Positions 7,724 through 62,161 of a stretch of 64,000 bases of DNA are shown in pieces. Origin of the DNA: Candidatus Omnitrophota bacterium (GTDB taxonomy: Bacteria; Omnitrophota; Omnitrophia; Omnitrophales; Aquincolibacteriaceae); NCBI GenBank assembly GCA_903856085.1, contig CAIOAT010000038.1, positions 26,777 through 90,776 of the forward strand. Reading direction: 5' to 3'. Position 1 is the first letter of the stretch. Each line of letters opens with the position of its first letter. Under the pieces are notes generated by a model. The model was not told the DNA's origin and searched no databases. It was given only the letters and a program-made list of their open reading frames with translations. The position numbers and the translations under genes are program-made.

Positions 7724-9680
7724 TCCGGATCTCCTTTTCTTGAACTAAGATAAGCTTCCCCAGAACAAAACGCTGGTATTTTTCTTCATTGCGAAAAAAC
7801 CAAACAAGTTTTCCGTCCACGCCTTTACGGTCAATCTCATGCACGGCCGGGCTGAGCCGGATCTCCTTGCCCGGTCCCGGCGTCACTCCCAAATATTCCC
7901 AACCGATGGCACCTTCAATAATGTAACCTTTTTCATCGGCATAACTCTTCGCCAGAACCCTCTTTTTCTCCAACGGATCCTCCCCGCCCTGAAACCAGGA
8001 CCAGGCGGCAAGCTCCTTGTCATCACGCCCCGGCCTAAAACCCAGCTGATAATCCTGCGGATCGTTCCAAAAAAGCCCATCTCCCGCCGGGTCTATATAG
8101 ATTTCAAAAAGATCGTCGCGCCAGATATGCTTCCCTGTCCTTTTTACCACGATATCGTCATCGGTCACTTTCGCGACAAAATAAAGATACTCGCTATCCC
8201 ACGCAAAACGAACCTCCGCCCCAAGATCCTTCGGCCCGTTAAAATCCCCGAAATCTTTGTGCTCTTCTGAATTCATAACAATAGCCCCGCCAGGAGGCCA
8301 ATCCTTGAGAAATCCGTCCACCCGAATGCCTCCTGAGACATAGGGCGCTCGATAGACCGGCGGCTCCGGCCACGGGAGCGGCAAAGCCCCCTTCCGGAAT
8401 CCTATTTTTGAAAGCGCTTTTTGAACGGGTGCGCTTTGTGCCATGAACTTCCATATCAGTCCGGTGCGGTGATTCTCGATCATGAGGAGAAGCGGTCCCT
8501 GGTCGATCGCCAGAACCTTGTCGCTGAACCAACTCTTACCCACATTCATCGCGTCGGAAAAACCATAAGGCCCCCACATCGCATCGCTGTAATAGGTTCG
8601 AATGTTCTCAAGACAGGCGATAGATTCCTCAGGAGTGAACACAATCGAACTCCCGCAGGCCGTAGGCGCGATCGTCCCATCGTGAAAGACTGTCCATCCC
8701 GGCGGCGCACCATAAGCGCGATACCCTGCGGGGCCCTCGGAAGCCGAAAGTCCCCAGAGGTTCGGACCGTAACCAGCAAATTTCGAGGCCTGATCGATAC
8801 AAAAAGCGCGGTTCGCGCGCGAAGCGTTGACAGAATTCTCGAAATAATCCGCGAGCCCATCATTTTGGCCTCGAAGATCAAGCCAGACATGGGGGTATTG
8901 ATGCGTAAAAAGTGGTGGCATTTGGATCAAGCGAAAGTCGCGGTAGCTGCCCACAGGACGGAGGATCGCGCGCCAACTTTCTTCGGAGATCGGATGGCCC
9001 GGCGAACCGATCGCCAGAACATAAAGAAGCAGCGATTCATCGAAATGATCCCAACGCGCCTTACTAAACCCCGTCTCAGGACTCCAGGCAAGCGCGAAGG
9101 CCTTCCCCTTATTCAGCATCCAAGGGAAATCAACCCGTTCATAGATCTTTTGAACAAGGTCCCGGATCTTCGCGTCATCGTAATATTCAGCTGCAAAAAG
9201 AGCCCCGGCAAGAAAAAGCGCCGTGTCGATCGGCGAAAGCTCGCAGTGGTTCACCCTTTCACCGGTCTCAAAGTTCAGAAAATGATAAAAGAATCCCTGA
9301 TGCTGGGGCGCTTGCTGAAGAAAAAACTCCAGCGTTCGCACGGTAAGCTCGTAAGCTGCTGCACGACTCATCCATCCCCGTTCCACCGCTACAGGATAAA
9401 CCGTAAGCGCGAATCCCGTCGCAGCGATACTGGCCGGAGCATTCGTTGCAACCCCGGACCTGTTCGGTGCGCTATCCCGCACAAGACCATTGTAGGGATT
9501 GTGCTGCTCCTCAAAATAACGGAACGCTTTTTCCTGAACCTCATTCAGGAGTTCTTCGTGAGAAGCGGAAGGTTCTTGAGCGGCTACGGAACACGAGAAA
9601 AGAAAAAACAGCAGGTAGCAAGTCGTAGGCAGAAGGCAGGAAAATGCAGGTCGCAAAAAAGATGCGGAGGGTTGTTTCAT
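7695..9680 (-). CDS. Secreted glycoside hydrolase, glucoamylase-like/DUF3131 (GH144-like beta-glucanase family), with a C-terminal CBM9-like carbohydrate-binding domain
   Basis: The start is reassigned to the ATG at 9680 (MKQPSASFLRPAFSCLLPTTCYLLFFLFSCSVAAQEP, a signal peptide). The ORF-track start at 9869 adds a Cys-rich 63-aa extension that overlaps the neighbouring gene. The central (alpha/alpha)6-like region reads ..DTALFLAGALFAAEYY..LLLYVLAIGSPGHPISEESW... The C-terminal region (GFLKDWPPGGAIV..FAWDSEYLYFVAKVTDDDIV..DLFEIYIDPAGDG) resembles CBM9/DOMON-like modules. Confidence 0.55.
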   Translation of the reverse strand: MKQPSASFLRPAFSCLLPTTCYLLFFLFSCSVAAQEPSASHEELLNEVQEKAFRYFEEQHNPYNGLVRDSAPNRSGVATNAPASIAATGFALTVYPVAVERGWMSRAAAYELTVRTLEFFLQQAPQHQGFFYHFLNFETGERVNHCELSPIDTALFLAGALFAAEYYDDAKIRDLVQKIYERVDFPWMLNKGKAFALAWSPETGFSKARWDHFDESLLLYVLAIGSPGHPISEESWRAILRPVGSYRDFRLIQMPPLFTHQYPHVWLDLRGQNDGLADYFENSVNASRANRAFCIDQASKFAGYGPNLWGLSASEGPAGYRAYGAPPGWTVFHDGTIAPTACGSSIVFTPEESIACLENIRTYYSDAMWGPYGFSDAMNVGKSWFSDKVLAIDQGPLLLMIENHRTGLIWKFMAQSAPVQKALSKIGFRKGALPLPWPEPPVYRAPYVSGGIRVDGFLKDWPPGGAIVMNSEEHKDFGDFNGPKDLGAEVRFAWDSEYLYFVAKVTDDDIVVKRTGKHIWRDDLFEIYIDPAGDGLFWNDPQDYQLGFRPGRDDKELAAWSWFQGGEDPLEKKRVLAKSYADEKGYIIEGAIGWEYLGVTPGPGKEIRLSPAVHEIDRKGVDGKLVWFFRNEEKYQRFVLGKLILVQEKEIRNADAPKRKT

Positions 9681-9964
9681 TTTATTTTTTTCAGAAATAC
9701 CGCAATCAGCCCCAACCTCTGAGCAACAGTCAACTCCAGCTCCGCGAGCAACCCCCTGGCACTGTGGAGATATTGTTTGTGTTCCGTCGGAGCATACCGC
9801 TGGAATCCCTCCGCAATGTTCGCAGAGGCTGAAACGGCAGCACGGTGAGGCAGCGAAGTCAAGCCACATACTTCCTCGCGAAGAAAATCAAGGATTGGCA
9901 CATCAACATCCGTCGTGATTTCGGTCCCAAGATTCCAAGTCCTCAAATCTTTAAAGCTCTGCAT
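9677..9964 (-). CDS. Four-helix-bundle protein (23S rRNA intervening-sequence protein family, TIGR02436-like)
   Basis: It carries the hallmark motif ..GLTSLPHRAAVSASANIAEGFQRY..HSARGLLAELELTVAQRLGLI. The likely start is the ATG at 9964 (MQSFKDLRTWNL); the ORF-track start at 10018 is probably upstream of the true start. Confidence 0.55.
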   Translation of the reverse strand: MQSFKDLRTWNLGTEITTDVDVPILDFLREEVCGLTSLPHRAAVSASANIAEGFQRYAPTEHKQYLHSARGLLAELELTVAQRLGLIAVFLKKIK

Positions 9965-10018
9965 CTTTTCCATACGCATTCCTAACGAGATTCGCTTCAC
10001 CGACATACGACATGCCAT

Positions 10019-10774: not shown

Positions 10775-11224
10775 CTATGAAAACGAGCCGCACACGTTGG
10801 CGGAATTATACGTCGGCCCGTAAAGATGGGTTCCGGCAAAAACACCCCCATTCGTCAAAGTGACCGTCCCGGCACAATCATTCGTTGCACCTGCCTTATG
10901 CAACCGCGTCGCCGTCGCGATGAAGTTCGAACCGCTAGTCAAATCAACCTTGTAGGAAAATTGAGCATTGTTCGGATCATCGATCCCTAACTTATTCCAC
11001 TCCGTGGAACCACTCGAAGAAGTAAGCGATAGGTAAGCGCTATTTTCGAGTTTATAGGCCTCCTCACCTTGTCGAATGGCGGAGAGAATCACGACCGATT
11101 CGGCAACAACCCCACGTTCCTCCTGACCAAAAAAACGCGGGATCATCAGCGCCGCCAATAATCCAATGGCAACCAACACGATCAAAATCTCAATCATCGT
11201 AAAACCTTTATTCATTCTCATCAT
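10775..11224 (-). CDS. Type IV pilin/pseudopilin-like protein with a prepilin-type N-terminal cleavage/methylation domain
   Basis: MMRMNKG|FTMIEILIVLVAIGLLAALMIP is the class III signal. The start is reassigned to the ATG at 11224, with a GAGGGGGG Shine-Dalgarno upstream. Confidence 0.7.
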   Translation of the reverse strand: MMRMNKGFTMIEILIVLVAIGLLAALMIPRFFGQEERGVVAESVVILSAIRQGEEAYKLENSAYLSLTSSSGSTEWNKLGIDDPNNAQFSYKVDLTSGSNFIATATRLHKAGATNDCAGTVTLTNGGVFAGTHLYGPTYNSANVCGSFS

Positions 11225-11413
11225 GTTAGAAGCCCCCCTCTTTTTCCAAAATTCCCTTAACATCAAGCTACTCACCGGTGCAAGGATTACAAACATGAAA
11301 CCGAAACTCGATCAAGAACACACACCTTCATCTTTCCTTCCCTCATGGAAAAGAGCCGAGGGTTCATTTTCTTCGATACCTATCGGACAGATTCAGTCAG
11401 CAATCTAAAGTGT

Positions 11414-11887
11414 CTAGGATGCCTGACATGCAACCGTCACGAGCTTGCCGTCAAAACCTTCCGTCGTCACAGGCTTATACGACCCCAAACAAACATAGGC
11501 CCCGGTTGCGATATCTATCCGGATACCATTTCCCCCCGGACCTATCCTGCCCGTCTCAGTCGCCTGGCAAGCTCCCTCTGCCGGCAAACATTCATAATCA
11601 AACCCGGTACTGGCTTCCACATTCGGAAGTTTCATCTCGTTCCACCCTGGTGTATAGATTCTCTTCTCGCCAATTTTTCTTGCGGAAAGAGGCTTGTAAG
11701 CCTGGGTGGATTGCTGGTAAGCCGTCTCTGCGCGGCGGAGCGTCACAAGCATTTTCTGCGCTTCCGTCAAATTTGCGCGAAATTTCTGCTCTGGCTCCGG
11801 TCTAGGACGAAATAAAAAAAACATAAATGAAAAAAGCGATGCGAGTAAAACCAGATAAAGAATCTTCTTCAAACAGATACCTCGCAT
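11414..11887 (-). CDS. Hypothetical pilin-fold-like protein lacking a canonical G-F-T-L-I-E prepilin site
   Basis: It has an N-terminal hydrophobic helix (ILYLVLLASLFSFMFFLF), a pilin-like amphipathic segment (LTEAQKMLVTLRRAETAYQQSTQAY), and C-terminal Cys pairs (ECLPAEGAC, CLGSY...VAC). It sits inside the pilin array. Confidence 0.35.
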   Translation of the reverse strand: MRGICLKKILYLVLLASLFSFMFFLFRPRPEPEQKFRANLTEAQKMLVTLRRAETAYQQSTQAYKPLSARKIGEKRIYTPGWNEMKLPNVEASTGFDYECLPAEGACQATETGRIGPGGNGIRIDIATGAYVCLGSYKPVTTEGFDGKLVTVACQAS

Positions 11888-11931: not shown

Positions 11932-12369
11932 CTAGAGCAGAGTGCATCCCCCATTCGTCATGGTCGTATAATCCGAACCGCAGCTCCAAACTCCGGCACT
12001 GGTTATAGTTGCACGTTTATTGGTAGCTCCAGTCCTTTCAGCCGCACACTGCGAACTTGAACATGTGTAAGTGAACTTGGCGCCAACACCACTTGACACG
12101 GCAGCTCCGGGAGTTCTCATCCCCAGCCTGGCCCACTCCGACGAAGAGGTATTCGCGGTGATCGTGGCAAAAACGCCTCCCGTATCGATGTTTGCCTGCT
12201 GCGCGCGAATCATGGTACCAAGCATCATATTGGCCTCCGCAGCCAAGGCTTTCTCCGGCGCAGATAGCATTCGCGGCATGAGTAGAGACGCCAAAATACC
12301 GATAACCACTACTACGATTAAAATCTCTATGAGTGTAAACCCCTTATTTCCACCCATTGTAGTCTTCAT
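11932..12369 (-). CDS. Type IV pilin (major pilin-like), paralog 1
   Basis: MKTTMGGNKG|FTLIEILIVVVVIGILASLLMP, a C-terminal disulfide (TYTCSS..C..WSCGSDYTTMTNGGCTLL). It is about 85% identical to paralog 2. The start is reassigned to the ATG at 12369. Confidence 0.8.
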   Translation of the reverse strand: MKTTMGGNKGFTLIEILIVVVVIGILASLLMPRMLSAPEKALAAEANMMLGTMIRAQQANIDTGGVFATITANTSSSEWARLGMRTPGAAVSSGVGAKFTYTCSSSQCAAERTGATNKRATITSAGVWSCGSDYTTMTNGGCTLL

Positions 12370-12378
12370 TTTACCCAA

Positions 12379-12393
12379 CCCCCCCCCCCCCCC
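12379..12393 (-). promoter_or_regulatory. Homopolymeric C15 tract on the plus strand, G15 on the coding strand. It lies 9 nt upstream of the pilin paralog-1 start codon, in the RBS/promoter-proximal position.
   Basis: Read directly: ...ttacccaa ccccccccccccccc ttgtaccc. On the coding strand this is CAGGGTACAA-G15-TTGGGTAAA-ATG. Confidence 0.6.
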
Positions 12394-12463
12394 TTGTACC
12401 CTGGTTTCCCGGGACAGGCCGGCCGATAGGCCAAGCCTGCCCCGAGAGCAGAGAGTAGTTAGA

Positions 12464-12901
12464 CTACAATAGCGTACAGCCACCATTCGTCATGGTCGTA
12501 TAATCGGAACCGCAGCTCCAAGCTCCTGCACTGGTTAAAGTTGCAGTTTTTGCGGCAACGCCAGTCCTTACCGCACCACACTGCCCACTTGAACATGTGT
12601 AGGTGAACTTGGCGCCAGCGCCGGCTGTTAATGCAAGTCCGGGAGTATTCATGCCTAAACGGGCCCACTCCGAAGAAGAGGTATTCGCGGTGATCGTCGC
12701 AAAAACGCCTCCTGAATCGGTGTTCGCCTGTTGGGCACGAATCATGGTGCCAAGCATCTGATTGGCTTCAGCGGCTATAGCTTTCTCCGGCGCAGACAAC
12801 ATGCGCGGCAGAATTAAAGACGCCAAAATCCCGATGACAACAACTACGATCAAAATTTCTATAAGGGTAAAACCCTTACTTGAACCCTTCTTGTTTTTCA
12901 T
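12464..12901 (-). CDS. Type IV pilin, paralog 2
   Basis: MKNKKGSSKG|FTLIEILIVVVVIGILASLILPRMLSAPEKAIAAEANQMLGTMIRAQQAN... It is near-identical to paralog 1 through the N-terminal helix and the C-terminal disulfide loop. Confidence 0.8.
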   Translation of the reverse strand: MKNKKGSSKGFTLIEILIVVVVIGILASLILPRMLSAPEKAIAAEANQMLGTMIRAQQANTDSGGVFATITANTSSSEWARLGMNTPGLALTAGAGAKFTYTCSSGQCGAVRTGVAAKTATLTSAGAWSCGSDYTTMTNGGCTLL

Positions 12902-12998
12902 ACTTTCCTCCTTTGATTAACTGCCTATTTATTAATCGACACATCCACTTTTTCCTTCACTTTTTCCTTCACTTCTTCCCAACAACACCCTCACACTT

Positions 12999-13433
12999 CT
13001 AAAGCAAGCGACATCCACCATTAAGCATGGGCGTATACTCCGGACCACAGGTCCAAGTTCCACCCGCACTCAGCTTTGCCCATTTATTAGGCTGATCAAG
13101 CCTGTAACCAATACACTCCTGCGTAGCGGAGTTGCATGTATAAGAAAACTTTGCACCATTGCCAGAGGCTGTGGCAGATCCGGGTTGGATCATGCCTAAT
13201 ATTTGCCAGGGCGCGGGAGTCACATTATCGCTGACTGCGAGAAAACCGGATCCCTTATCAACGTTCACCCTCTGCGCTCGCATTATGGCGCCAAGGGTCG
13301 TATTGGCCTCCGCCACAAAAGCTTTTTCTGGCACACTCACCAACTTCGGAATGATGATAGCTGCCAAAACCCCGATGACCACGACCACCAACAACACTTC
13401 AACGAGCGTGAAGCCTTTCTTATGTCTCATCAT
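12999..13433 (-). CDS. Type IV pilin, paralog 3
   Basis: MMRHKKG|FTLVEVLLVVVVIGVLAAIIIPKLVSVPEKAFVAEANTTLGAIMRAQ..C..C..WTCGPEYTPMLNGGCRLL. The start is reassigned to the ATG at 13433. Confidence 0.8.
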   Translation of the reverse strand: MMRHKKGFTLVEVLLVVVVIGVLAAIIIPKLVSVPEKAFVAEANTTLGAIMRAQRVNVDKGSGFLAVSDNVTPAPWQILGMIQPGSATASGNGAKFSYTCNSATQECIGYRLDQPNKWAKLSAGGTWTCGPEYTPMLNGGCRLL

Positions 13434-13582: not shown

Positions 13583-14920
13583 CTAATTTGTCCCTGCCCG
13601 GGTCGACAGTTCAATGATGGGCATAAACATGGCAATCACGATCGTACCGATCACACCCCCCATGAACACCAAAAGGAATGGCTCCAAAAGCGTCGTCAGA
13701 CGTGCAAGAAACGTGTCGACCTGATCTTCATAATAGTTAGCCAAAAGGTCCAAAAAACGATCGAGTTGACCGCTTTCCTCGCCAACTGTAATAAGCTGGG
13801 TCATAAAGACCGGAAATATCTTCCGGGCTTCAAGCTGAGCACCGAGTCTTTGCCCGTTGCGAACCTGCTGCGCTACCCGTTTGATACCCCCCTCAATGAA
13901 CGGATTCTCCACAAGCCGTCCGGCGATCTCAAGCGCCTGAAGGATTTGCACGCCGGCACGCAGAAGAGTTCCGAGCGATCTTGTGAAACGGATCACGGCC
14001 ACTTGCATCAGGATCGTCCCAAAAATAGGCGCTCCTAAAGCTATTCTGGAGTAAAACATCTGCACCGAGAGCATCTTTCCACTCCAAACAAAAGCAATCA
14101 CCGCGGCAGCCACGCACCCAGCCGCCCAGAGAAAGTGCATTCTCAAGACATTGCTTATGGCCACGACGATCTGGGTCAAGACCGGAAGCTCTAATTTTTG
14201 AGACGCAAAAATTTCAGAGAACTTCGGAACGATAAATAGCAAAAGAAATGTGAGAGCGCAAATCACCGCCACCGTCAGAACCCCTGGATAAAAAAATGCG
14301 GTAACCACCTTGCTTTTGATCCGCGCTGCTGATTCCTGATAGTGAGCGATCTCTTCAAGACACTCCGGCAGTTTTCCTGTTGTTTCTCCGACCCCCACAA
14401 GATTCACCCAGATCCACGGAAAAACATGCGGGAAGCTCCGAAGCGCGTTACTGAACGTACCGCCTCCCGTGATCTTCTTACACATGGACTGGAGAACCTT
14501 CCGAAAAAAAAGATTCGTAATACCCCTTTCAATGATCTCCAGCGCTCGAAGAAGCGGAATACCCGCCTTGAGAAGGGTCGAGAGTTGCACAGCGAAAAAA
14601 ATGGCCTCGCGAGGCGAAACGTGATTGGAGAATGAGAACAAAGCTCCTCCAGACTTCTTATCGGAATCGGCGGGCAACGAAGGTTTCGAAAAGATATTTT
14701 TAAACCCGCTTTTCTTCTTTCCTTGCTCCCAGACTTTAATCACGACATACCCTTGACCAAGAAGCTTTTGAATGGCGGCATCCTTTGTCGGAGCTTCCAC
14801 GGTCAAAGTCTTAGCCTCCCCCGGACGGTCGCGCAAGCGGACCTGAGCATCAAAGCGCAGATCCGGCTCTTTAGACATGTTCGCTTGTTGGAATCCCATG
14901 ATGGGTTCATTCATAAGCAA
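13583..14920 (-). CDS. pilC: Type IV pilus assembly platform protein PilC (GspF family)
   Basis: Two GspF repeats (..LLKAGIPLLRALEII.., ..LLRAGVQILQALEIA..), three TM helices, and an N-terminal F.Y.A.D..G pattern (RFDAQVRLRDRPGEAKTLTVEAPTKDAAIQKLLGQGYVVI). The true start may be an internal Met, 14878 or 14899. Confidence 0.85.
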   Translation of the reverse strand: MLMNEPIMGFQQANMSKEPDLRFDAQVRLRDRPGEAKTLTVEAPTKDAAIQKLLGQGYVVIKVWEQGKKKSGFKNIFSKPSLPADSDKKSGGALFSFSNHVSPREAIFFAVQLSTLLKAGIPLLRALEIIERGITNLFFRKVLQSMCKKITGGGTFSNALRSFPHVFPWIWVNLVGVGETTGKLPECLEEIAHYQESAARIKSKVVTAFFYPGVLTVAVICALTFLLLFIVPKFSEIFASQKLELPVLTQIVVAISNVLRMHFLWAAGCVAAAVIAFVWSGKMLSVQMFYSRIALGAPIFGTILMQVAVIRFTRSLGTLLRAGVQILQALEIAGRLVENPFIEGGIKRVAQQVRNGQRLGAQLEARKIFPVFMTQLITVGEESGQLDRFLDLLANYYEDQVDTFLARLTTLLEPFLLVFMGGVIGTIVIAMFMPIIELSTRAGTN

Positions 14921-16601
14921 CGCTCAAAATCTCGTCTAAAGAGGTTAACCCTCGCTCCACCTTCTTGATCCCGTTCTGAAGGAGCGTCTCATATTTTTTT
15001 TCTTTTTGAAGATCCCTCAACTTGGAAATATCCGCGTCCTTTGTGATAAGACGCCGGATATCTTCACCGATCGGCAGAACCTCATAAATGGCCATACGCC
15101 CCCAATAACCAATATCCCGGCACTTGGGACAACCTTTGGCCCTGTAAAGAGTCTCCGTCCGGATCCGATAATCCGCCTGGGTCTTAGGATCCACTTTGAA
15201 CGGTTCTTTACAGTGCGGACAAAGAATACGGATCAGGCGCTGGGCCGCTACAAGCCCGAGACTTCCCGCGACCAAATAGGCCTGAATCCCGATGTCGATA
15301 AGGCGGGTCATGGCCGTCACGGCATCGTTGGTGTGTAATGTGGAGAGCACCAAATGGCCGGTGAGGGACGCGCGAATGCAGATCTCGGCCGTCTCAAGAT
15401 CGCGCACTTCTCCCACCAAGATCACATCCGGATCCTGACGCAAAAAAGCGCGTAGAGCCGCAGAAAAAGTCAGTCCGATCTCCGGCTTCACCTGGACTTG
15501 GTTCATGCCCGAAATTTGATACTCGACTGGATCTTCAATGGTCAAAATATTGATCTCTGGAGAAAGACGTTTGTTCAGAGCCGCGTAAAGCGTTGTGCTC
15601 TTACCGCTTCCCGTCGGTCCGGTCACAAAGATAAGCCCATAAGGCCGCATCAGTGCCGTCTCAAACTGCGCGAGCTGTTCGGGTTCAAAACCAAGCGAAT
15701 TCATATCCAAAAGATCCACGCGCTTCTCCAGAATACGCATCACAACCTTTTCTCCGAAAACAATCGGGATGGTTGATACGCGCATATCAACCTTGTTTCC
15801 TTTGTACTGCAGCGCGAACGAACCATCCTGAGGAATCCGCTTTTCAGCAATATCCATTTTGGAAAGGATCTTGATGCGCGAGACCAGCGCGTTATGCAGT
15901 TCCCGGGGAGGCGGAGGAAGTTCGTAGAGAACGCCGTCAATGCGATAGCGAATATTAATCTTGTCGTGGAACGGTTCGATGTGGATATCGCTTGCTCGGT
16001 CCTCAAGAGCTTTACGGATCAGGACATCCACGAGCTTGACCACGGGGGCCTTTTCAGCTTCTAAAATGGTCGCTTCAAGATCGATCTTATGATCGCCCTC
16101 TTCCTTGACAAAATCCTGCGTAACATCATCGACCTCCGAGGACGAAACGACTTCCTGAAGATCGGAACTGCCATAATACGTCTCGATGGCCCGCCGAAGT
16201 TCACCCTCGGTCGAAAGAACCGTCGTAATGTCAAACCCGGTAAGTTTGCGAAGATTATCCATGAAAATAAGATCGGGCATTTTCGCCACGGCTACTTTGA
16301 GCACCTGTCCGGAACGCTCCAGGGGAAGAACGAGATTGGCAAACGCAAACTCAGCTGAAATGCACTCCTTGAGGCGCTGGTCCATGCGGGGTTTTAATTG
16401 CGCGGGGGCAAGGAAAGAAACGCCGAGCTGCTCGGCCAAAACTACCTTGAGCTGAGCATCCTGCAGGAAACCCAAGTGGATCAAGATCTGACCCAGCGGT
16501 TCTCTGGATTCTTTTTGTTTGGCAAGAGCCTGGGCGAGCTGCTCCCGGGTGATGAGCCGCCGTTCGACAAGAATGTCGCCCAACAAAGCGTTAGTACCCA
16601 T
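14907..16601 (-). CDS. pilB: Type IV pilus assembly ATPase PilB (GspE family)
   Basis: The N-terminal T2SSE_N-like domain is LITREQLAQALAKQKESREPLGQILIHLGFL. Walker A is GPTGSGKSTT, with Asp/His boxes. The zinc-binding tetracysteine motif is CPHCKEP..CPKCRDIGYWGR. Confidence 0.9.
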   Translation of the reverse strand: MGTNALLGDILVERRLITREQLAQALAKQKESREPLGQILIHLGFLQDAQLKVVLAEQLGVSFLAPAQLKPRMDQRLKECISAEFAFANLVLPLERSGQVLKVAVAKMPDLIFMDNLRKLTGFDITTVLSTEGELRRAIETYYGSSDLQEVVSSSEVDDVTQDFVKEEGDHKIDLEATILEAEKAPVVKLVDVLIRKALEDRASDIHIEPFHDKINIRYRIDGVLYELPPPPRELHNALVSRIKILSKMDIAEKRIPQDGSFALQYKGNKVDMRVSTIPIVFGEKVVMRILEKRVDLLDMNSLGFEPEQLAQFETALMRPYGLIFVTGPTGSGKSTTLYAALNKRLSPEINILTIEDPVEYQISGMNQVQVKPEIGLTFSAALRAFLRQDPDVILVGEVRDLETAEICIRASLTGHLVLSTLHTNDAVTAMTRLIDIGIQAYLVAGSLGLVAAQRLIRILCPHCKEPFKVDPKTQADYRIRTETLYRAKGCPKCRDIGYWGRMAIYEVLPIGEDIRRLITKDADISKLRDLQKEKKYETLLQNGIKKVERGLTSLDEILSVAYE

Positions 16602-16624
16602 GCTTTTTTGTATTATTCCCTATC

Positions 16625-18388
16625 TTAGGATTGACTCGAAGCAGGCGCCTTCGGACCCTGATCCAGATTGCTCAGAGTGTTATCGATCAACCGCTTCCGA
16701 AGATCGAAATAACCGTCAAAATCCGTTTTTTCCTCCGGCCCGTTCTTAAGCTCCTTGTACCACTGCTTGTCCTTCACCTTCCAGAAGGGCGCCTTCTCCT
16801 CATTGAAAGACAGTTTCTTTTCGGGGGGATTGGGAGTGTGAAGCATGGCAGGATCCGTGATGATGTAAGGTGTCACAAAAAGGATCAATTCCCGATCCTT
16901 GATCGATTTCTTGTTGCTTGTAAAAAGCGCCTTGCCGATCACGGGGATATTTCCAAAAAAGGGCACTTTCTGGTCATCGTTGGACTGAGAGCTGAAAAGC
17001 AACCCTCCCAGCGCGATCGTCTGTCCGTCATTGACCATCAGGGTGGTCCGAGCAGTCCGGGTCGTGGGATCTCCCGTCTGCCCTGCGGTGGGACCGCTAC
17101 CGTTCACCTTGATCGCAGAATCTTCTACCGTTGCAAATGTCGGTTCCACCGTCAATGTGATACGTCCCCCGGTATTAATGAGCGGTGTCACACGCAAGAT
17201 GGTTCCGACCTCATAACGTTCGGTATCTGAGGAAGTGGTTCCCGACCCGCCCCCCGTCGTACTCGTCGACGTGCCAATCGCCGCGTCGGTCGAAATCTTG
17301 ATTAGAGCGGCCTGATTATCTAAAGCGAGAATCTTGGGTTTGGCCAGAATCTTGAGCTTGTTGGTATCCTCCAACGCTTTGATCGTAACCGCAAAGCTCG
17401 AAAAATCCCGAATCCCCGGAGTCACCGCGCCCGTATTGTGCGTGGGATTGAATTGTTTGGCGGTATCCTTGAGAGTATCCCCGATATCGTTAAAAAAACC
17501 TTTGGAGGAGCCTGTTCTTAACGGCCAATTGGTGTCGGTTGTAGAACCTGAGATGGTCCCAAAAACACCATCGGTCCCCCAATCGATGCCGAGGCTCCGG
17601 TCAAGATCCTCAAACGTCTCAACCAGAATCACATTGATAAGCACCTGGTCCAGAGGGCGATCGAGCTGGGTAATTGCAGACTCGATCATCTTGAGCCGAT
17701 CCTCTGAATCGGTCACGATCAAGCTATTGGAACGGTCATCGACCGAAACTTTGCCTCGTTCGGAGAGGATCTTTTCAACTGCCGTGACGATCGCCGCACC
17801 TTTAGTATCCTCTTTGGGGGCATGAAGGGTCGTAAGCGAGCCTGATCCACTCGCCGATCCACCGGATTCGATCTCTTTAATGGCGGTCACTTTCAGATAA
17901 TAAAGTTTAAAAACACGCGTCAGCAAAGACGGTCTTTCAGGAGCATCGGACGAAGCCCTGAAAAGATAGATGTTCCTTCCCGGGAGAAAATCATAGCTGA
18001 CATTACATCCGTAAGCGATTGCCTGCAAAACATCCTCAAGGACGACATTGTCGAGCGTCATGCTGACTTTCCGGTCCGACACTTCGGTCCCCGCGATGAA
18101 ATTGATCCCGCTTAGATTCGAAAGCACGTTCAGCACATTGATAAGCGACGCAGATTTAAAATCCAGGTAATATCTTCCGTCGGCCGTCTTCTCGACCTTA
18201 GGGACCGGCACTGCGGCAGTCGATGCTCCCAAAGCTGGTTGTTGCATGTCCGAAGAGCCAGGAGCCGGAGAAGCCGGTGTATCCAAAGGAACGCCCGCGT
18301 CTTCCGCAAAGCCGGGATGAGAGAGACAGAGACACAACAAAAAAGCAGCGGGGAAACTTCTGATAAAAAAACGGCCTGCTTTTCTCAT
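16625..18388 (-). CDS. pilQ: Type IV pilus secretin PilQ (secretin with an N-terminal STN/secretin-N domain)
   Basis: Signal peptide MRKAGRFFIRSFPAAFLLCLCLSHPGFA. Secretin-N domains (LNVLSNLSGINFIAGTEV..). The C-terminal secretin core is GQTIALGGLLFSSQSNDDQKVPFFGNIPVIGKALF..ELILFVTPYII. A C-terminal tail of about 90 aa rich in charged residues follows it. Confidence 0.85.
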   Translation of the reverse strand: MRKAGRFFIRSFPAAFLLCLCLSHPGFAEDAGVPLDTPASPAPGSSDMQQPALGASTAAVPVPKVEKTADGRYYLDFKSASLINVLNVLSNLSGINFIAGTEVSDRKVSMTLDNVVLEDVLQAIAYGCNVSYDFLPGRNIYLFRASSDAPERPSLLTRVFKLYYLKVTAIKEIESGGSASGSGSLTTLHAPKEDTKGAAIVTAVEKILSERGKVSVDDRSNSLIVTDSEDRLKMIESAITQLDRPLDQVLINVILVETFEDLDRSLGIDWGTDGVFGTISGSTTDTNWPLRTGSSKGFFNDIGDTLKDTAKQFNPTHNTGAVTPGIRDFSSFAVTIKALEDTNKLKILAKPKILALDNQAALIKISTDAAIGTSTSTTGGGSGTTSSDTERYEVGTILRVTPLINTGGRITLTVEPTFATVEDSAIKVNGSGPTAGQTGDPTTRTARTTLMVNDGQTIALGGLLFSSQSNDDQKVPFFGNIPVIGKALFTSNKKSIKDRELILFVTPYIITDPAMLHTPNPPEKKLSFNEEKAPFWKVKDKQWYKELKNGPEEKTDFDGYFDLRKRLIDNTLSNLDQGPKAPASSQS

Positions 18389-37727: not shown

Positions 37728-38084
37728 GGCACAACGATTCCATCCCCTAGGAACCAGACAAGCAACGCTCTGATTTGGAATCGGAATTCATTTCTTCTTT
37801 ATTATATTGCCTCGTTATTGGAACGCTCCTTACTCACACCCCGACTCTTCTCAAACGTAATCCGTTTTTGAAACCCTCGGCTCAGCTTATGCTTATGGGT
37901 TTATATTCGGCCCGATTTTGGATTGTGCCCAGAAAAGTCTCCAGACAGACAACTCGAGATGCGGAAAAAAGAAAGATTTTTGAGCGCCTTGAAATGTATT
38001 ACAATTCCTAGAGAGGTCCATCTGGTTTTTTCAAAGAACTCCAGGAAGCCTTGCATAGCACAGATAACCAACTGGGGAGAACCA

Positions 38085-39503
38085 GTGCCGAAAGTTTTTT
38101 TTGCCACACCGCCTATCAGCATGGAAGAACGCTACGGTTCGCTAGCCGGGGCCGGAAGTTGCCTTCCCTCGCTTGGCATTCTTTTTCTTGCCGCGATAAC
38201 CCGAAAAGAAGGCTTCCCAACCGCGTTGGCCGATGCCTCGGCGCTCAGTCTCACAGGGAAGGAGTTACTGCAACGTGTTGAGTCTGAGCAACCCGATGTT
38301 CTCGGACTTTCAGCCACGACCTTTTCCATTTTTCATGCCGCCAAATTTGCGGCCCTGGTAAAAGAACGGTTCCCCGCCATGACCATCATCATCGGAGGCC
38401 CCCACGTTTCAGCAGCACCTCATGAAACGATGGAACGCTTTCCTGTTTTTGAAGTTGCGGTTCTGGGAGAAGGCGAGGAAACGATCATCGACCTTCTGGA
38501 GACTATGGATACCCATGCCCCCTTGGCGAATATACCGGGAACCATCCTGCGTAGCGACGGAAAATTGGTAACGACCCAACGCCGAGAGTTTCTAAAGAAT
38601 CTCGATTCACTGCCCTATCCAGCTTGGGATCTATTGGAAGGATTTCCAGAGCGTTATCGACCCGCTCCCTTCAAAGTACGCCGGTTCCCGGCCGCCTCAC
38701 TTGTAACCTCGCGTGGTTGTCCCAACCAATGCATTTTCTGCGACCGATCCGTATTTGGAACAAGTTGTCATGCCTTTTCGGCCGAGTATGTGACAGGGAT
38801 GATTCGTCATCTTGTCGAGCACTTCGGGATCCGGGAATTCAGTTTTGAGGACGACACCTTCATTACTTTTAAAAAACGTCTTGTGGCCATTTGTCAGGGC
38901 ATTATCGACCTTGGAATTGATATTTCCTGGACCTGCCTGGGACGGGTGAACGGTGTAGACAAAGAGACCCTGGAGTTGATGCGGCGGGCTGGTTGCTGGC
39001 AGATCAGTTTCGGTATCGAGAGCGGTTGCCAGGAGATCCTTACCACCATTCACAAGAACATCACCCTTGAACAGATTCAAAATGCCGTGGCCCTTTGCCG
39101 GAATGCAGGAATTCTCAGCAAAGGCTTTTTTATCGTCGGCCATCCGGGAGAAACACGGGAGACTCTGTCACGAACTATGGACTTTGCCTTAAAGCTTCCC
39201 CTCGATGATATCAGTGTTACCATGCTGACCCCTTTCCCCGGCACCGAGATATACGAACGGGCTGCGGAATTCGGAAAGTTTGACAGTGACTGGTCCAAGA
39301 TGAATCTGCTCAATGTCGTATTCATCCCACATGGACTCACCCGTGAGGATTTGGAAGAGTACCAGCACAAGATATTACGAAAGTTTTATTTGCGTCCGAG
39401 GATTATCTTGGGTTACCTTCGACGCCTTATTGCAAATCCTTCTATGTCAAAAGGGATACTGCTTGGAGCAAAGGCGTTTTTCCGCAGCGTCAATAAAAAA
39501 TAG
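38085..39503 (+). CDS. B12-binding domain-containing radical SAM enzyme
   Basis: A GTG start at 38085 is proposed (GGGGAGA Shine-Dalgarno, then VPKVFFATPPI...). The ORF-track ATG at 37923 adds an unlikely 54-aa extension. The cluster motif is CPNQCIFCDRSVFG. Confidence 0.7.
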   Translation: MPKVFFATPPISMEERYGSLAGAGSCLPSLGILFLAAITRKEGFPTALADASALSLTGKELLQRVESEQPDVLGLSATTFSIFHAAKFAALVKERFPAMTIIIGGPHVSAAPHETMERFPVFEVAVLGEGEETIIDLLETMDTHAPLANIPGTILRSDGKLVTTQRREFLKNLDSLPYPAWDLLEGFPERYRPAPFKVRRFPAASLVTSRGCPNQCIFCDRSVFGTSCHAFSAEYVTGMIRHLVEHFGIREFSFEDDTFITFKKRLVAICQGIIDLGIDISWTCLGRVNGVDKETLELMRRAGCWQISFGIESGCQEILTTIHKNITLEQIQNAVALCRNAGILSKGFFIVGHPGETRETLSRTMDFALKLPLDDISVTMLTPFPGTEIYERAAEFGKFDSDWSKMNLLNVVFIPHGLTREDLEEYQHKILRKFYLRPRIILGYLRRLIANPSMSKGILLGAKAFFRSVNKK

Positions 39504-39536
39504 CAATTCATAAATAGCGATGAGGAGGTTACCCGT

Positions 39537-40919
39537 ATGCATTTTGTCTTTGTTCAACCGCCCATAGGTAAGAGAGTAGTCAGTATAATACCCGCTTTAA
39601 GCATCCCTTACCTTGCTGCTATTGTGGAAGGAAAGCAAATTCAGGTATCGGTGGTTGCATCTGACGCTGAAGGTTTAAGCGTAGAAGAAACAGCGGAGAG
39701 AGTGATTGAGTTACGTCCGGATGTTGTCGGATTTTCAATTGGAACACTCGCTGCTCTTAATTCATACGAAATCGCCGGGCTGGTGAAAAAGAAAATTAGC
39801 GATGTGATAACTATTGCCGGGGGACATCATGCTACGATATTCCCGGAGGAGGTATTAACCAGCGGGATTGATTTTGTCGCAATTGGAGAGGGGGAAAAAA
39901 CGATTGGTGAATTTTCTGACTACCTCTTGAAAAATAAAAAGCTAGAAGAGGTTCGCGGAATTGCATATCGTCAGGGAGAGAGGATTAAATACAATGACAC
40001 CCAAACAGTCATTAAAAACTTGGACGATTTACCGCTGCCAGCATGGCATTTAATGCCAATCGACAAGTACAAAAGTGTCTTTCAAAAGACGCTGCGAAAC
40101 TTACCTATTGTGACATCACGTGGGTGTCACGGACAATGCATTTTTTGTTACAAAGGACTATTTGGAGATACGTTCCGAATGAGGTCGCCCAAAAACATTG
40201 TTAGTGAAATAAGATACTTGAAGGATAATTTCGGCATAAGTTCGTTCGATTTCATTGATGATCATTTCGCGACTATTCCTAAACGAGCAATAGAAATATG
40301 CGCATTGATAAAAAAGGAGGGGATCAATTTAGCCTGGGGACTCCCATCAGGGATACGCGTTGATGTGGTTACTGAGGAATTGTTAAACGCATTGAAAGAA
40401 GCGGGGTGCTATCGTATTGGATTTGGCGTTGAATCAGGAAATGACCGAGTGTTAAAAAACATCAAGAAAAATACTACGAAAGATCAAATTCGCAAAGCCG
40501 TACAATTGGCGCGAAGTATGAATTTTACAGTATATTGTTTTTTTATTATTGGCAATCTCGGCGAAACAGAGCGGTCGATTAATGACACCATTGAATTTGC
40601 TAGGGAACTTGACCCCGATATTGCACAATTCTCAGTAGCGGTGCCATATCCTGGGACTGAGATGTTTCGGATGTTAAAACAACAGGACAGAATTATCAGT
40701 TTTGATTGGAACGATTACGATTATTTTTCATCCGGTCGTCAAATTTTTAAACATGAGCATCTTGATTATCATGTCATCCAAAAAAAATACGCTGAAGCAT
40801 ACAGAAGTTTCTATTTAAGGCCAACGTACATCATAAAACAATTAAAGGCTTTAAAAAATTTAAACGAGATGAAGAAATTAATACAATCGTTTTTCCGATT
40901 ATTCGGTCTATTAAAATAA
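39537..40919 (+). CDS. B12-binding domain-containing radical SAM enzyme, AT-rich composition
   Basis: MHFVFVQPPIGK.., cluster motif CHGQCIFCYKGLFG. Composition and codon usage are visibly AT-richer than the flanking genes. Confidence 0.8.
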   Translation: MHFVFVQPPIGKRVVSIIPALSIPYLAAIVEGKQIQVSVVASDAEGLSVEETAERVIELRPDVVGFSIGTLAALNSYEIAGLVKKKISDVITIAGGHHATIFPEEVLTSGIDFVAIGEGEKTIGEFSDYLLKNKKLEEVRGIAYRQGERIKYNDTQTVIKNLDDLPLPAWHLMPIDKYKSVFQKTLRNLPIVTSRGCHGQCIFCYKGLFGDTFRMRSPKNIVSEIRYLKDNFGISSFDFIDDHFATIPKRAIEICALIKKEGINLAWGLPSGIRVDVVTEELLNALKEAGCYRIGFGVESGNDRVLKNIKKNTTKDQIRKAVQLARSMNFTVYCFFIIGNLGETERSINDTIEFARELDPDIAQFSVAVPYPGTEMFRMLKQQDRIISFDWNDYDYFSSGRQIFKHEHLDYHVIQKKYAEAYRSFYLRPTYIIKQLKALKNLNEMKKLIQSFFRLFGLLK

Positions 40920-41105
40920 TGCGTTGCAATGTTGTACTATTCTACGAGACGTCGATACATAGACATTTTTAAAGAAGTTTGTATAGCGCAAGAAGTCGGT
41001 AAAACGTCTTCTTTCGGCCCATAAAAGCATCGTTGCTGGACTTGAGCGTAAAGTTTTAGCGTACACAATGGATTAAATTATAATTAGCTCTATGAATCAC
41101 ATAAC

Positions 41106-61849: not shown

Positions 61850-61923
61850 TGGAGCGAGTGGAGGGAATCGAACCCTCGTAGCTGCCTTGGCAAGGCAGAG
61901 CATTACCACTATGCTACACTCGC
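61850..61923 (-). tRNA. tRNA-Gly (anticodon GCC), CCA encoded
   Basis: Reverse complement of the plus strand: GCGAGTG TA GCAT AGTGGTA ATGC T CTGCC TTGCCAA GGCAG CTAC GAGGG TTCGATT CCCTC CACTCGC T CCA. All stems are Watson-Crick. Confidence 0.85.
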
Positions 61924-61933
61924 TTGTTAGATG

Positions 61934-62004
61934 AAACACTGCGGTCATCGTAGACGGCTGTCATTGAGCCGTCATGACGCCACATTTGTTCACTGAGAAC
62001 AAAG
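61934..62004 (-). ncRNA. Twin-hairpin conserved element, copy A. It lies between the predicted promoters and tRNA-Gly.
   Basis: Hairpins GACGGCT-n7-AGCCGTC (61953-61973) and TTTGTTC-n5-GAACAAA (61985-62003). It is about 75% identical to copy B, with compensatory substitutions in both stems. Confidence 0.45.
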
Positions 62005-62023
62005 CGACTTCCGGGGAGGCCGT

Positions 62024-62136: not shown

Positions 62137-62161
62137 ATAAACCGCTGTCATTCATTTAAAG

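What the first reader, a model, noticed from the sequence alone, without database searches (positions are those of the whole stretch)
12379..12393. Homopolymeric G15 tract in the ribosome-binding region of a pilin gene: a candidate slipped-strand phase-variation switch
Nine nucleotides upstream of the ATG of pilin paralog 1, the coding strand reads CAGGGTACAA-GGGGGGGGGGGGGGG-TTGGGTAAA-ATG. Tracts of this length are hypermutable by slipped-strand mispairing. Length changes would alter promoter or RBS spacing and switch the pilin on and off. The Bordetella fim2/fim3 poly-C promoters are the classic precedent.

No other pilin in the array has such a tract. Only this one paralog would therefore be phase-variable, giving stochastic pilin-subunit switching.
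Basis: partly seen in the sequence, partly recalled or inferred. Interest (0 to 1): 0.6.

Follow-up and report, generated by a model that had tools for sequence, protein, structure and literature searches.

The report
Length-variable poly-G ribosome-binding site, pilin gene
A run of 15 G's sits directly in front of one of two tandem type IV pilin genes of an uncultured lake bacterium (Omnitrophota); it is real and differs in length between metagenome assemblies (8 to 15 or more), so it is a credible slippage hot spot, but it forms the ribosome-binding site itself and no effect on expression has been shown.

Summary
The + strand carries C15 at 12379-12393, which is G15 on the gene strand, 9 nt upstream of the ATG (12369) of a 145-aa type IV pilin. 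The next-longest G/C run in 64 kb is 7, and about 3e-4 such runs are expected by chance.

The tract is not an artefact. It recurs in independent assemblies of the same Omnitrophota population. Its length differs (G8, G13, G14, G15, and at least 17 and 21 at broken contig ends) while the flanks are identical or nearly so. Three datasets break their contigs at the tract. That is the usual computational signature of a slipped-strand hypermutable repeat.

The proposed mechanism is not supported. No promoter hexamers bracket the tract. The tract is itself the Shine-Dalgarno sequence, and its 3' edge is fixed. The predicted SD:anti-SD duplex and its distance to AUG are the same for G8 to G15.

Any length effect more likely acts through RNA structure: pairing with an upstream CU-rich stretch, or an RNA G-quadruplex once the run reaches about 11 G. 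That would tune the duplicated pilin gradually rather than switch it on and off. A neutral runaway expansion of the SD remains a serious rival.

Verdict: a new member of a known kind, of moderate interest.

The parts
12379..12393 (-). Homopolymeric G15 tract (C15 on the + strand); predicted Shine-Dalgarno sequence of pilin 1 and the length-variable element
   Evidence: sequence, uniqueness. (lengths 8, 13, 14, 15, >=17, >=21 in other assemblies). (SD:anti-SD duplex depends on the tract).
12370..12378 (-). Fixed 9-nt spacer TTGGGTAAA between the tract and the ATG (TTGGGAAAA in the G8 haplotype); its GGG can serve as the fourth G-run of a quadruplex
11932..12369 (-). Pilin 1: 145-aa prepilin (leader MKTTMGGNKG, then FTLIE...), 82% identical to pilin 2; the gene served by the tract
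   Evidence: PF07963, 29.8 bits against a cutoff of 21.2
12411..12443 (-). GC-rich hairpin GGGGCAGGCTTGGCC-TATC-GGCCGGCCTGTCCC after pilin 2, with no U-tract; candidate attenuator or mRNA-stability element
   Evidence: fold. (not called as an intrinsic terminator). Analogous hairpins follow the last major-type pilin in relatives.
12444..12459 (-). CU-rich stretch ACUACUCUCUGCUCUC, predicted to pair with the G tract (a cis anti-SD)
   Evidence: MFE -64.3 kcal/mol, z = -5.0, 0 of 200 shuffles as stable
12462..12472 (-). 5' arm of the predicted outer stem, CUAUUGUAGUC; it contains the pilin 2 stop codon UAG (12466-12464)
12354..12364 (-). 3' arm of the outer stem, GACUACAAUGG (end of codon 2 to the start of codon 6 of pilin 1)
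12464..12901 (-). Pilin 2: 145-aa prepilin with a canonical AGGAGG SD and an unstructured leader; probably the main expressed pilin
   Evidence: leader MFE -4.4 kcal/mol, z = +1
12999..13433 (-). Pilin 3: 144-aa prepilin, 51% identical to pilin 1
13583..18388 (-). Upstream pilus machinery genes on the same strand: PilC-like platform (13583-14920), PilB-like ATPase (14907-16601), secretin (16625-18388)
   Evidence: precomputed Pfam families (T2SSF, T2SSE/MshEN, Secretin)
10775..11887 (-). Downstream genes: 157-aa ORF with no Pfam match (11414-11887) and a 149-aa pilin-like gene (10775-11224) with a G6 run in its SD (11233-11238)

Best explanation
The tract is a slippage-prone poly-G repeat that has grown out of the Shine-Dalgarno sequence of a duplicated major-pilin gene (pilin 1). 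The gene lies in the type IV pilus operon of an uncultured freshwater Omnitrophota bacterium.

The tract sits in the 94-nt spacer between pilin 2 and pilin 1, downstream of a GC hairpin. It is most likely transcribed as part of the pilin 2 mRNA.

Shown here:
- the tract is real;
- it is the only strong SD available to pilin 1;
- it varies in length (8 to 15, and longer at broken contig ends) among otherwise identical or near-identical haplotypes.

Inferred:
- Length changes leave SD strength and spacing unaltered, so any effect on expression would come from how strongly the G run is sequestered.
- Sequestration could be by pairing with the CU-rich stretch 5' of the hairpin, or by an RNA G-quadruplex. 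A three-tetrad quadruplex becomes possible at about 11 G or more when the downstream GGG is used, and within the tract alone at 15 G.
- Ribosomes terminating at the pilin 2 stop codon, which lies inside the outer stem, could partly reopen the structure (translational coupling).
- The net effect would be cell-to-cell and strain-to-strain variation in the pilin 1 to pilin 2 ratio. That is a rheostat rather than a clean ON/OFF switch.
For: Reality and uniqueness.

Independent assemblies and length polymorphism:
- G15 in the window, L002, L003, L005, L006 and L008;
- G14 in L102;
- G13 in L004;
- G8 in L097 and L104, where the tract is the only indel among 9 SNPs in 4.4 kb;
- at least G17 and G21 at the broken ends of JGI contigs L001 and L007.

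Gene spacing in DNA-less records implies G15 twice, G8 once, and an 84-nt spacer once.

Contigs break at the tract in JGI 3300009502, in Logan ERR4193103 (L008/L103) and in ERZ1426555.

The tract is the SD:
- the duplex with the canonical anti-SD is -13.2 kcal/mol for G8 to G15, against -5 to -7 for G0 to G3, and the distance to AUG does not change;
- a related species has G10-AGG-ATG where its sister has AGGAGGGGTGG-ATG;
- G5 and G6 SDs occur elsewhere in the window, including another pilin.

Structure:
- the pilin 1 leader folds at -64.3 kcal/mol, z = -5.0, with the G tract paired to the CU stretch and the stop codon and codons 3-6 in an 11-bp outer stem;
- the pilin 2 leader is unstructured;
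- ViennaRNA with G-quadruplex terms predicts 2-, 3- and 4-tetrad quadruplexes at 8-10, 11-18 and 19 or more G.

Precedents:
- a 6-16 G repeat in the H. pylori tlpB leader gives graded control by pairing with a C/U-rich RNA loop (PMC8295292);
- homopolymeric tracts that are polymorphic between close relatives are taken as strong phase-variation candidates (PMC1891110).
Against: No expression data of any kind are available.

G13, G14 and G15 differ by amounts that Illumina consensus error at a long G run could produce. The main dataset was sequenced with NovaSeq two-colour chemistry (PMC8121793). Only G8 against G15 is backed by linked SNPs.

G15 is the assembled length in most samples. G10 is constant in three assemblies of the related species. 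The mode therefore looks fairly stable.

The RNA structure and quadruplex are thermodynamic predictions. A poly-G run will pair with any pyrimidine-rich stretch. The analogous fold in the related species is not significant (z = -1.2).

The direction of an RNA-quadruplex effect depends on position; it was enhancing when placed 46 bp upstream of the SD in E. coli (PMC11087576).

The anti-SD used is the canonical one, because this organism's 16S rRNA is not in the window.
Confidence: 0.5

Rival explanations
1. Neutral runaway Shine-Dalgarno. A G-rich SD (GGAGGGG-like) mutated into a pure G run and then expanded by slippage. Because any 5 or more G's at the 3' end of the run give the same SD strength and spacing, length drifts without regulatory consequence. 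The tract is hypermutable, but it is not a switch or a rheostat.
For: - SD duplex energy and spacing do not change from G8 to G15.
- Short G-run SDs are ordinary in this genome.
- They also occur at pilin genes elsewhere: G10 in L092-L094 against AGGAGGGGTGG in L091, and G8 in a Nitrospirae pilin, L014.
- The assembled modal length is the same (G15) in most samples.
Against: - 15 G is far beyond what an SD needs.
- A run this long is expected to cost something, through RNA structure, a quadruplex or replication and transcription slippage, so persistence at 13-15 in the dominant haplotype suggests tolerance or selection.
- The surrounding leader is unusually structured (z = -5).
- It is the only tract of its kind in 64 kb, and it lies at a duplicated surface-filament gene, the classic location of contingency loci.
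Confidence: 0.28
2. A transcriptional ON/OFF switch of the Bordetella fim type. The tract spaces promoter elements, or an activator site and the -10 element, and pilin 1 is transcribed from its own promoter only at certain lengths.
For: - By eye, a good -10-like TAAAAT overlaps the ATG and a weak -35-like GGTACA precedes the tract.
- The hairpin upstream could terminate pilin 2 transcripts, in which case pilin 1 would need its own promoter.
- Precedent: fim2, fim3 and fimX C-tracts of 10-18 (PMC1891110).
Against: - The consensus scan finds no promoter-like pair around the tract.
- The hand-found pair has a 21-nt spacer at G15 and 14 nt at G8. Only about G10-12 would be functional, and no such length was observed.
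- Its transcript would start inside codons 2-3 and skip the first ATG.
- The spacer is GC-rich, with no AT-rich UP-like sequence.
- No sigma-54 -24/-12 match with correct spacing was found by inspection.
Confidence: 0.07
3. A G-quadruplex or R-loop recombination initiator, as upstream of Neisseria pilE. The G-rich strand is the non-template strand of the operon. Transcription would expose it, a DNA quadruplex would form, and the resulting nick or stall would promote gene conversion between the tandem pilin paralogs. This would generate pilin sequence variants.
For: - G15 exactly meets the minimum for a three-tetrad quadruplex with 1-nt loops, and G15-TT-GGG offers more registers.
- It lies between two 82%-identical pilin genes.
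- Allele P0002, at the pilin 2 position in another assembly, mixes pilin 1-like and pilin 2-like segments. P0035 joins the pilin 1 N-terminal part to the P0002 C-terminal part.
- Precedent: PMC3547852.
Against: - There are no silent cassettes in the window, only one full-length paralog.
- The G8 haplotype could form at best a two-tetrad quadruplex.
- The mosaic alleles come from contigs of 649 nt and 1.9 kb, which could be assembly chimeras of paralogs, or ordinary allelic recombination.
- A homopolymer is a much better slippage substrate than a defined quadruplex motif.
- DNA identity between the paralogs (about 83%, with differences spread evenly) does not suggest frequent recent conversion in this strain.
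Confidence: 0.06
4. A sequencing or assembly artefact, for example NovaSeq dark-cycle poly-G or a chimeric join.
For: - The main dataset was sequenced on NovaSeq 6000 (PMC8121793), where G is the no-signal base.
- Junk G-rich sequence flanks the tract at the ends of JGI contigs L001 and L007.
Against: - The tract is internal, with unique and syntenic sequence on both sides.
- It appears in contigs of up to 281 kb, from at least three assembly pipelines and several samples, including a separate JGI dataset.
- A second haplotype carries G8 at the same position.
- Dark-cycle artefacts give long read-end poly-G, not a 15-mer bridging two genes.
Confidence: 0.02

Closest known systems
Simple-sequence-repeat contingency loci (homopolymeric-tract phase variation by slipped-strand mispairing) in Neisseria, Haemophilus, Campylobacter, Helicobacter and Bordetella
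   Same: A G/C run well above the hypermutability threshold of about 8, next to a surface-structure gene, with length polymorphism between near-identical genomes and conserved flanks. This is the criterion used in PMC1891110.
   Different: The host is an uncultured environmental Omnitrophota bacterium, not a host-adapted pathogen. No paper in the searched library mentions phase variation together with Omnitrophota. The tract is neither in a coding region nor in a promoter; it constitutes the SD of an internal operon gene. No expression phenotype is known.
Bordetella pertussis fim2/fim3/fimX promoter C-tracts
   Same: A poly-C/G tract of similar length (10-18; PMC1891110) upstream of a filament-subunit gene, and one paralog among several.
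   Different: The fim tracts lie inside the promoter and act on transcription. Here there is no bracketing promoter, the tract is 9 nt from the ATG in an intercistronic spacer, and the gene is a type IV pilin (PF07963) rather than a chaperone-usher fimbrial subunit.
Helicobacter pylori tlpB-hp0102 leader G-repeat targeted by the sRNA RepG
   Same: A variable homopolymeric G-repeat (6-16 G) in an mRNA leader, whose length sets a graded post-transcriptional outcome by pairing with a C/U-rich RNA segment (PMC8295292). Here the G tract is predicted to pair with a C/U-rich segment as well.
   Different: In H. pylori the partner is a trans-acting sRNA loop and the repeat lies upstream of the RBS. 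Here the candidate partner is in cis, about 50 nt upstream, the repeat is the RBS, and no sRNA is known.
Neisseria gonorrhoeae pilE G4 with the gar sRNA (pilin antigenic variation)
   Same: A quadruplex-capable G-rich element just upstream of a type IV pilin gene that has homologous pilin sequence nearby (PMC3547852).
   Different: The Neisseria element is a defined GGG-N-GGG motif upstream of the promoter, with its own sRNA promoter and many silent pilS donors. Here it is a homopolymer at the RBS with a single expressed-type paralog. Recombination is only hinted at by two mosaic alleles.
Neisseria pilC1/pilC2 poly-G; Moraxella catarrhalis uspA1 poly-G; Treponema pallidum tpr poly-G (recalled from my own knowledge, not checked here)
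   Same: Poly-G tracts of 8-13 that control pilus-associated or surface proteins. The uspA1 and tpr tracts lie upstream of the ORF.
   Different: The pilC tract is inside the signal-peptide coding region and acts by frameshift. The uspA1 and tpr tracts act on transcription near the start site. None of them is described as being the SD itself.

Membership tests
Homopolymeric-tract contingency (phase-variable) locus | Tract longer than the hypermutability threshold (about 8-9 G/C or more) and longer than chance allows | tested here: met
   G15; the next-longest G/C run is 7; about 3e-4 expected
Homopolymeric-tract contingency (phase-variable) locus | Length polymorphism between closely related genomes with conserved flanks | tested here: met
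   G8, G13, G14, G15, >=17 and >=21. Flanks are 100% identical, or differ by 9 SNPs in 4.4 kb with the tract as the only indel. Caveat: differences of 1-2 nt could be consensus error.
Homopolymeric-tract contingency (phase-variable) locus | Within-population (read-level or clonal) length heterogeneity at high frequency | not testable with these tools
   Indirect evidence only: contigs break at the tract in three datasets.
Homopolymeric-tract contingency (phase-variable) locus | Tract length changes expression of the associated gene | not testable with these tools
   In-silico results only: SD unchanged; structure and quadruplex depend on length
Bordetella fim-type promoter tract | Tract lies between promoter elements or an activator site and the -10 element, so that length sets promoter geometry | tested here: not met
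   No hexamer pair found. The hand-found pair has a 21-nt spacer and would start the transcript inside the gene. The tract is 9 nt from the ATG.
Coding-region frameshift tract (Neisseria pilC type) | Tract lies inside the ORF, so that +/-1 changes shift the reading frame | tested here: not met
   The 184-aa ORF from ATG 12486 reads through G15 in frame. It is out of frame at G14, G13 and G8, overlaps the pilin 2 3' end and the hairpin, and is not needed, because the prepilin leader starts at ATG 12369.
RepG/tlpB-type G-repeat riboregulation | Variable G-repeat in an mRNA leader | tested here: met
   assuming co-transcription with pilin 2 (inferred)
RepG/tlpB-type G-repeat riboregulation | A C/U-rich RNA partner that base-pairs with the repeat | tested here: inconclusive
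   A cis CU-rich stretch (12444-12459) is predicted to pair with it (z = -5). No trans sRNA was searched for or is known. Rfam finds nothing here.
Neisseria pilE G4 recombination initiator | Sequence able to form an intramolecular G-quadruplex next to the pilin gene | tested here: met
   G15 = G3-N1-G3-N1-G3-N1-G3; ViennaRNA quadruplex prediction. In silico only.
Neisseria pilE G4 recombination initiator | Silent donor pilin cassettes and mosaic expressed variants | tested here: inconclusive
   No silent cassettes in the window. One full-length paralog. Two mosaic alleles, P0002 and P0035, on short contigs.
Type IV pilin / pseudopilin (class III signal peptide) | N-terminal G|FTLIE methylation motif followed by a hydrophobic helix | tested here: met
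   PF07963 above the gathering score for pilins 1, 2, 3 and the 149-aa gene. PilB, PilC and secretin genes lie upstream.

The most novel reading that the evidence does not exclude
The G15 tract is a transcription-activated G-quadruplex/R-loop element that triggers gene conversion between the two tandem pilin paralogs. If so, a free-living or episymbiotic Omnitrophota bacterium would have a pilin sequence-variation system analogous to Neisseria pilE/pilS. The mosaic alleles P0002 and P0035 would be its products. Tract-length slippage would switch the system between quadruplex-competent lengths (about 11 G or more) and incompetent ones (G8).
Probability: 0.06. Interest if true: 0.85.

Novelty: new member of a known kind. 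Interest (0 to 1): 0.4.

Why it matters
Phase variation through simple repeats has been worked out almost entirely in host-adapted pathogens. Here the same genomic signature appears in an uncultured Omnitrophota bacterium from stratified lakes: a very long G run, polymorphic in length, in front of a duplicated pilus-subunit gene. The phylum consists of ultra-small cells with predicted host-dependent lifestyles, and type IVa pili are listed among their symbiosis-related genes (PMC10066038).

If tract length tunes which pilin is made, that would be a bet-hedging device for attachment, partner or host range, or evasion of pilus-specific phages, in an environmental lineage.

It would also be an unusual anatomical case, because the repeat is the ribosome-binding site. 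That makes a structure- or quadruplex-threshold mechanism directly testable with simple reporters.

If the tract is neutral, it is still a practical warning: it is a recurrent assembly breakpoint, and it produces spurious 184-aa and 141-aa gene calls.

Tried and rejected
1. An exact scan of metagenome contigs with the 27-nt upstream flank found nothing. A second scan, with the flank of the related species' G10 tract, gave one unrelated chance hit. That collection does not hold these populations.

It returned only distant pilins (44% identity or less over matches of 100 or more residues), so no species-level relative was recovered that way. It did supply a background: one G8-SD pilin in about 600 kb of pilin loci.

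3. The promoter and terminator scan found nothing at the tract or the hairpin. Inspection for sigma-54 -24/-12 elements found a TGGC..TTGGC-like string with the wrong spacing, which I rejected.

4. The 184-aa ORF that reads through the tract (GGGGG) was rejected as a real N-terminal extension. It is out of frame in the G8, G13 and G14 haplotypes.

5. Rfam finds no known RNA family in the spacer; the window has only three tRNAs.

6. L006 first looked like a 1.3%-divergent strain that still had G15. Its mismatches all lie at 15.5-16.05 kb, and its pilin region is identical to the window, so it is not an independent lineage.

It was reached through cluster-member ids instead.

8. The A-run cluster at 25.0-25.8 kb is the Phe-rich coding sequence of a membrane protein, so it is ordinary.

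Full report
**Observation**

The + strand of the window carries exactly 15 C at 12379-12393. On the - strand this reads CAGGGTACAA-G15-TTGGGTAAA-ATG. The ATG at 12369 opens a 145-aa ORF, MKTTMGGNKG|FTLIEILIVVVVIG... This ORF matches the prokaryotic N-terminal methylation motif PF07963 above Pfam's cutoff.

The next-longest G or C run in 64 kb is 7. A run of 15 or more is expected about 1e-4 to 3e-4 times under i.i.d. or first-order models.

**Context**

The tract lies inside a type IV pilus gene cluster, all on the - strand (Pfam families). The order is:
- secretin (16625-18388);
- PilB-type ATPase (14907-16601);
- PilC-type platform protein (13583-14920);
- pilin 3 (12999-13433);
- pilin 2 (12464-12901);
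- a 94-nt spacer;
- pilin 1 (11932-12369);
- a 157-aa ORF with no Pfam match (11414-11887);
- a 149-aa pilin-like gene (10775-11224);
- a response regulator.

Pilin 1 and pilin 2 are 82% identical in protein and about 83% in DNA. Homology starts at about the ATG and ends at the stop codon.

The closest named homologues are from Candidatus Omnitrophota MAGs. The matching contigs come from stratified-lake metagenomes labelled BUCK21, with ERR419xxxx runs, plus a JGI lake metagenome.

**Is the tract real?**

Exact-protein look-ups retrieved the locus from ENA, Logan and JGI assemblies. The tract is internal to contigs of up to 281 kb, with syntenic unique sequence on both sides.

The main dataset was sequenced on NovaSeq 6000 (PMC8121793), whose no-signal base is G. 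Dark-cycle artefacts, however, give long read-end poly-G, not a 15-mer bridging two genes. A second haplotype has G8 at the same site. I consider an artefact excluded for practical purposes.

**Length polymorphism**

Tract lengths were measured with flank-anchored patterns.

| Length | Loci | Notes |
|---|---|---|
| G15 | window, L002 (=L095), L003, L005 (=L096), L006, L008 | flanks identical to the window |
| G14 | L102 | 225-kb scaffold, SAMEA6872761 |
| G13 | L004 | flanks identical to the window |
| G8 | L097, L104 | SAMEA6872781; distinct haplotype |
| at least G17 | L001 | broken end of a JGI 3300009502 contig |
| at least G21 | L007 | broken end of a JGI 3300009502 contig |

- The G13, G14 and G15 loci are otherwise 100% identical to the window in the pilin region.
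- The G8 haplotype differs by 9 SNPs spread over 4.4 kb. Its only indel is in the tract.
- It also has TTGGGAAAA in place of TTGGGTAAA, and K2R in pilin 1.
- Gene spacing in records without DNA implies G15 twice, G8 once, and an 84-nt spacer in one further assembly.
- Contigs break at or right next to the tract in JGI 3300009502, in Logan ERR4193103 (L008 ends and L103 begins there) and in ERZ1426555.

Polymorphism of a long homopolymer between near-identical genomes is the standard computational criterion for a candidate phase-variable locus (PMC1891110).

One caveat applies. Differences of 1-2 nt in a 15-mer can be consensus error. Only G8 against G15 is secured by linked SNPs.

**What the tract is in the mRNA**

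No sigma-70-like hexamer pair lies around the tract. The spacer is GC-rich.

Just after the pilin 2 stop codon come three elements:
- a CU-rich stretch (12444-12459);
- a strong GC hairpin with no U-tract (12411-12443);
- 17 nt later, the tract.

Co-transcription with pilin 2 is the simplest reading, but it is inferred.

Duplex calculations with the canonical 16S tail give -13.2 kcal/mol for G8, G13, G14 and G15, with the same 6-nt distance to AUG. They give only -5 to -7 kcal/mol when the tract is reduced to 0-3 G. The tract is therefore the Shine-Dalgarno sequence of pilin 1. Because its 3' edge is fixed, slippage does not alter SD strength or spacing.

This fits the relatives:
- One sister species has GAAT-G10-AGG-ATG in front of its first pilin, in three assemblies.
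- Another sister species has GAAT-AGGAGGGGTGG-ATG at the same place.
- More distant relatives have plain AGGAGG.
- The 149-aa pilin in the window uses a G6 SD.
- A ClpP-like gene in the window uses a G5 SD.
- A Nitrospirae pilin uses G8.

The tract looks like an SD that became a pure G run and then expanded.

**How length could matter**

The pilin 1 leader (12340-12480, - strand) folds at -64.3 kcal/mol, z = -5.0, and none of 200 shuffles is as stable. In the fold:
- the G tract pairs with the CU-rich stretch;
- the GC hairpin sits inside that pairing;
- an 11-bp outer stem joins CUAUUGUAGUC, which contains the pilin 2 UAG, to GACUACAAUGG (codons 3-6 of pilin 1).

By contrast, the pilin 2 leader is unstructured (-4.4 kcal/mol, z = +1) and carries AGGAGG.

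With G-quadruplex energies switched on, ViennaRNA predicts:
- two-tetrad quadruplexes for G8-10;
- three-tetrad quadruplexes from G11, as G11-UU-GGG, and within the tract alone at G15;
- four-tetrad quadruplexes from G19.

My best explanation is therefore that length tunes sequestration of the SD. Ribosomes terminating on pilin 2 may partly reopen the structure. The result would be graded variation in the pilin 1 to pilin 2 ratio, not a clean ON/OFF switch.

This resembles the H. pylori tlpB leader. There a 6-16 G repeat pairs with a C/U-rich RNA loop and gives gradual control (PMC8295292). The direction of a quadruplex effect cannot be predicted from sequence: it enhanced translation when placed 46 bp upstream of the SD in E. 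coli, and the same authors note inhibition when it lies close to the SD (PMC11087576). All of this paragraph is inference from thermodynamic models.

**Rivals**

- *Neutral runaway SD.* Since SD function is insensitive to length, the tract may simply drift. The stable mode (G15 in most samples, G10 in all three assemblies of the sister species) fits this. I give it about 0.28.
- *fim-like promoter switch.* By eye there is a weak -35-like GGTACA and a good -10-like TAAAAT overlapping the ATG. The spacer would be 21 nt at G15 and 14 nt at G8. The transcript would start inside the gene. No observed length gives 16-18 nt. About 0.07.
- *Quadruplex-stimulated recombination between the paralogs, as at Neisseria pilE (PMC3547852).* The G-rich strand is the non-template strand. 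Two alleles look mosaic: P0002, and P0035, which joins the pilin 1 N-terminal part to the P0002 C-terminal part. They come from very short contigs, however, and there are no silent cassettes. About 0.06.
- *Artefact.* About 0.02.

**Comparison with known systems**

The tract meets the sequence-level criteria of a simple-sequence contingency locus: its length, its polymorphism with conserved flanks, and a surface-gene neighbour.
- It fails the defining anatomy of the Bordetella fim promoter tracts, because no bracketing promoter is present.
- It fails that of coding-region frameshift tracts, because the 184-aa read-through ORF is out of frame at G8, G13 and G14.
- It shares the leader G-repeat feature of the RepG/tlpB system, but a trans sRNA is unknown.
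- It is quadruplex-capable like the pilE element, but lacks that element's other defining parts.

No paper in the searched library links Omnitrophota with phase variation. Type IVa pili are listed among the symbiosis-related genes of the phylum (PMC10066038).

**Verdict**

- It is a new member of a known kind, with an unusual anatomy in that the repeat is the SD of an internal operon gene. Interest is moderate (0.4).
- Read-level tract-length counts and a G-length reporter series would settle it.

Noticed in passing
P0002 (ERZ1426628 contig, no DNA held) and P0035 (649-nt ENA contig), compared with window 11932-12901: Pilin alleles look mosaic. P0002 sits at the pilin 2 position, has the pilin 2 N-terminal half, and mixes pilin 1-like (PGAAV, SSSQCAA) and pilin 2-like segments. 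P0035 is pilin 1 up to CSSSQCAA followed by the P0002 C-terminus. This could be gene conversion between the tandem paralogs, or assembly chimeras.
   Followed up: partly
window 12946-12979 (intergenic region between pilin 3 and pilin 2): A 12-nt tandem repeat of 2.8 copies: CACTTTTTCCTT on the + strand, AAGGAAAAAGTG on the gene strand. It lies about 50-80 nt upstream of the pilin 2 ATG and could be a regulator-binding or promoter-associated element for the main pilin.
   Followed up: no
window 12354-12472 (- strand): An 11-bp inverted repeat pairs the last codons and stop codon of pilin 2 (CUAUUGUAGUC) with codons 3-6 of pilin 1 (GACUACAAUGG), enclosing the whole spacer. It could serve translational coupling or be an RNase III-type processing stem.
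   Followed up: partly
window 11233-11238 (- strand): The 149-aa pilin-like gene also uses a G-run SD (GAGGGGGG, G6, 8 nt from the ATG). A ClpP-like gene at about 60464 uses AAGGGGG. G-run SDs seem to be a habit of this genome.
   Followed up: partly
L092:2988-2997, L093:2988-2997, L094:884-893: A related Omnitrophota species has a G10 tract, followed by AGG-ATG, in front of the first pilin of its array. It is identical in three assemblies. Its sister MAG GCA_043821445.1 (L091) has AGGAGGGGTGG at the same place.
   Followed up: partly
window 11932-12486; L005 and L096 gene calls; L102 gene call: The tract misleads gene callers. Some pipelines call a 184-aa ORF that starts at ATG 12486 and reads the G15 as GGGGG. 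On the G14 contig the caller starts at the second ATG and gives 141 aa.
   Followed up: yes
L006:643-1200, corresponding to window 15500-16055: One assembly (ERZ27313059) is identical to the window over the pilins but has 124 mismatches packed into about 550 bp at the N-terminal part of the PilB ATPase gene. This could be a strain-variable or recombined segment, or a chimeric contig end.
   Followed up: partly
window 9677-10018 (- strand): A small gene that matches the 23S rRNA intervening-sequence protein family (PF05635) sits between the response regulator and a glycoamylase/CBM9 gene. This arrangement is conserved in the other assemblies of this population; the sister-species loci lack the gene.
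   Followed up: no
window 61853-62513 (- strand): A cluster of three tRNA genes.
   Followed up: no
window 38000-42000: GC skew turns positive only here and is negative across the rest of the window. This probably marks a block of genes on the + strand.
   Followed up: no
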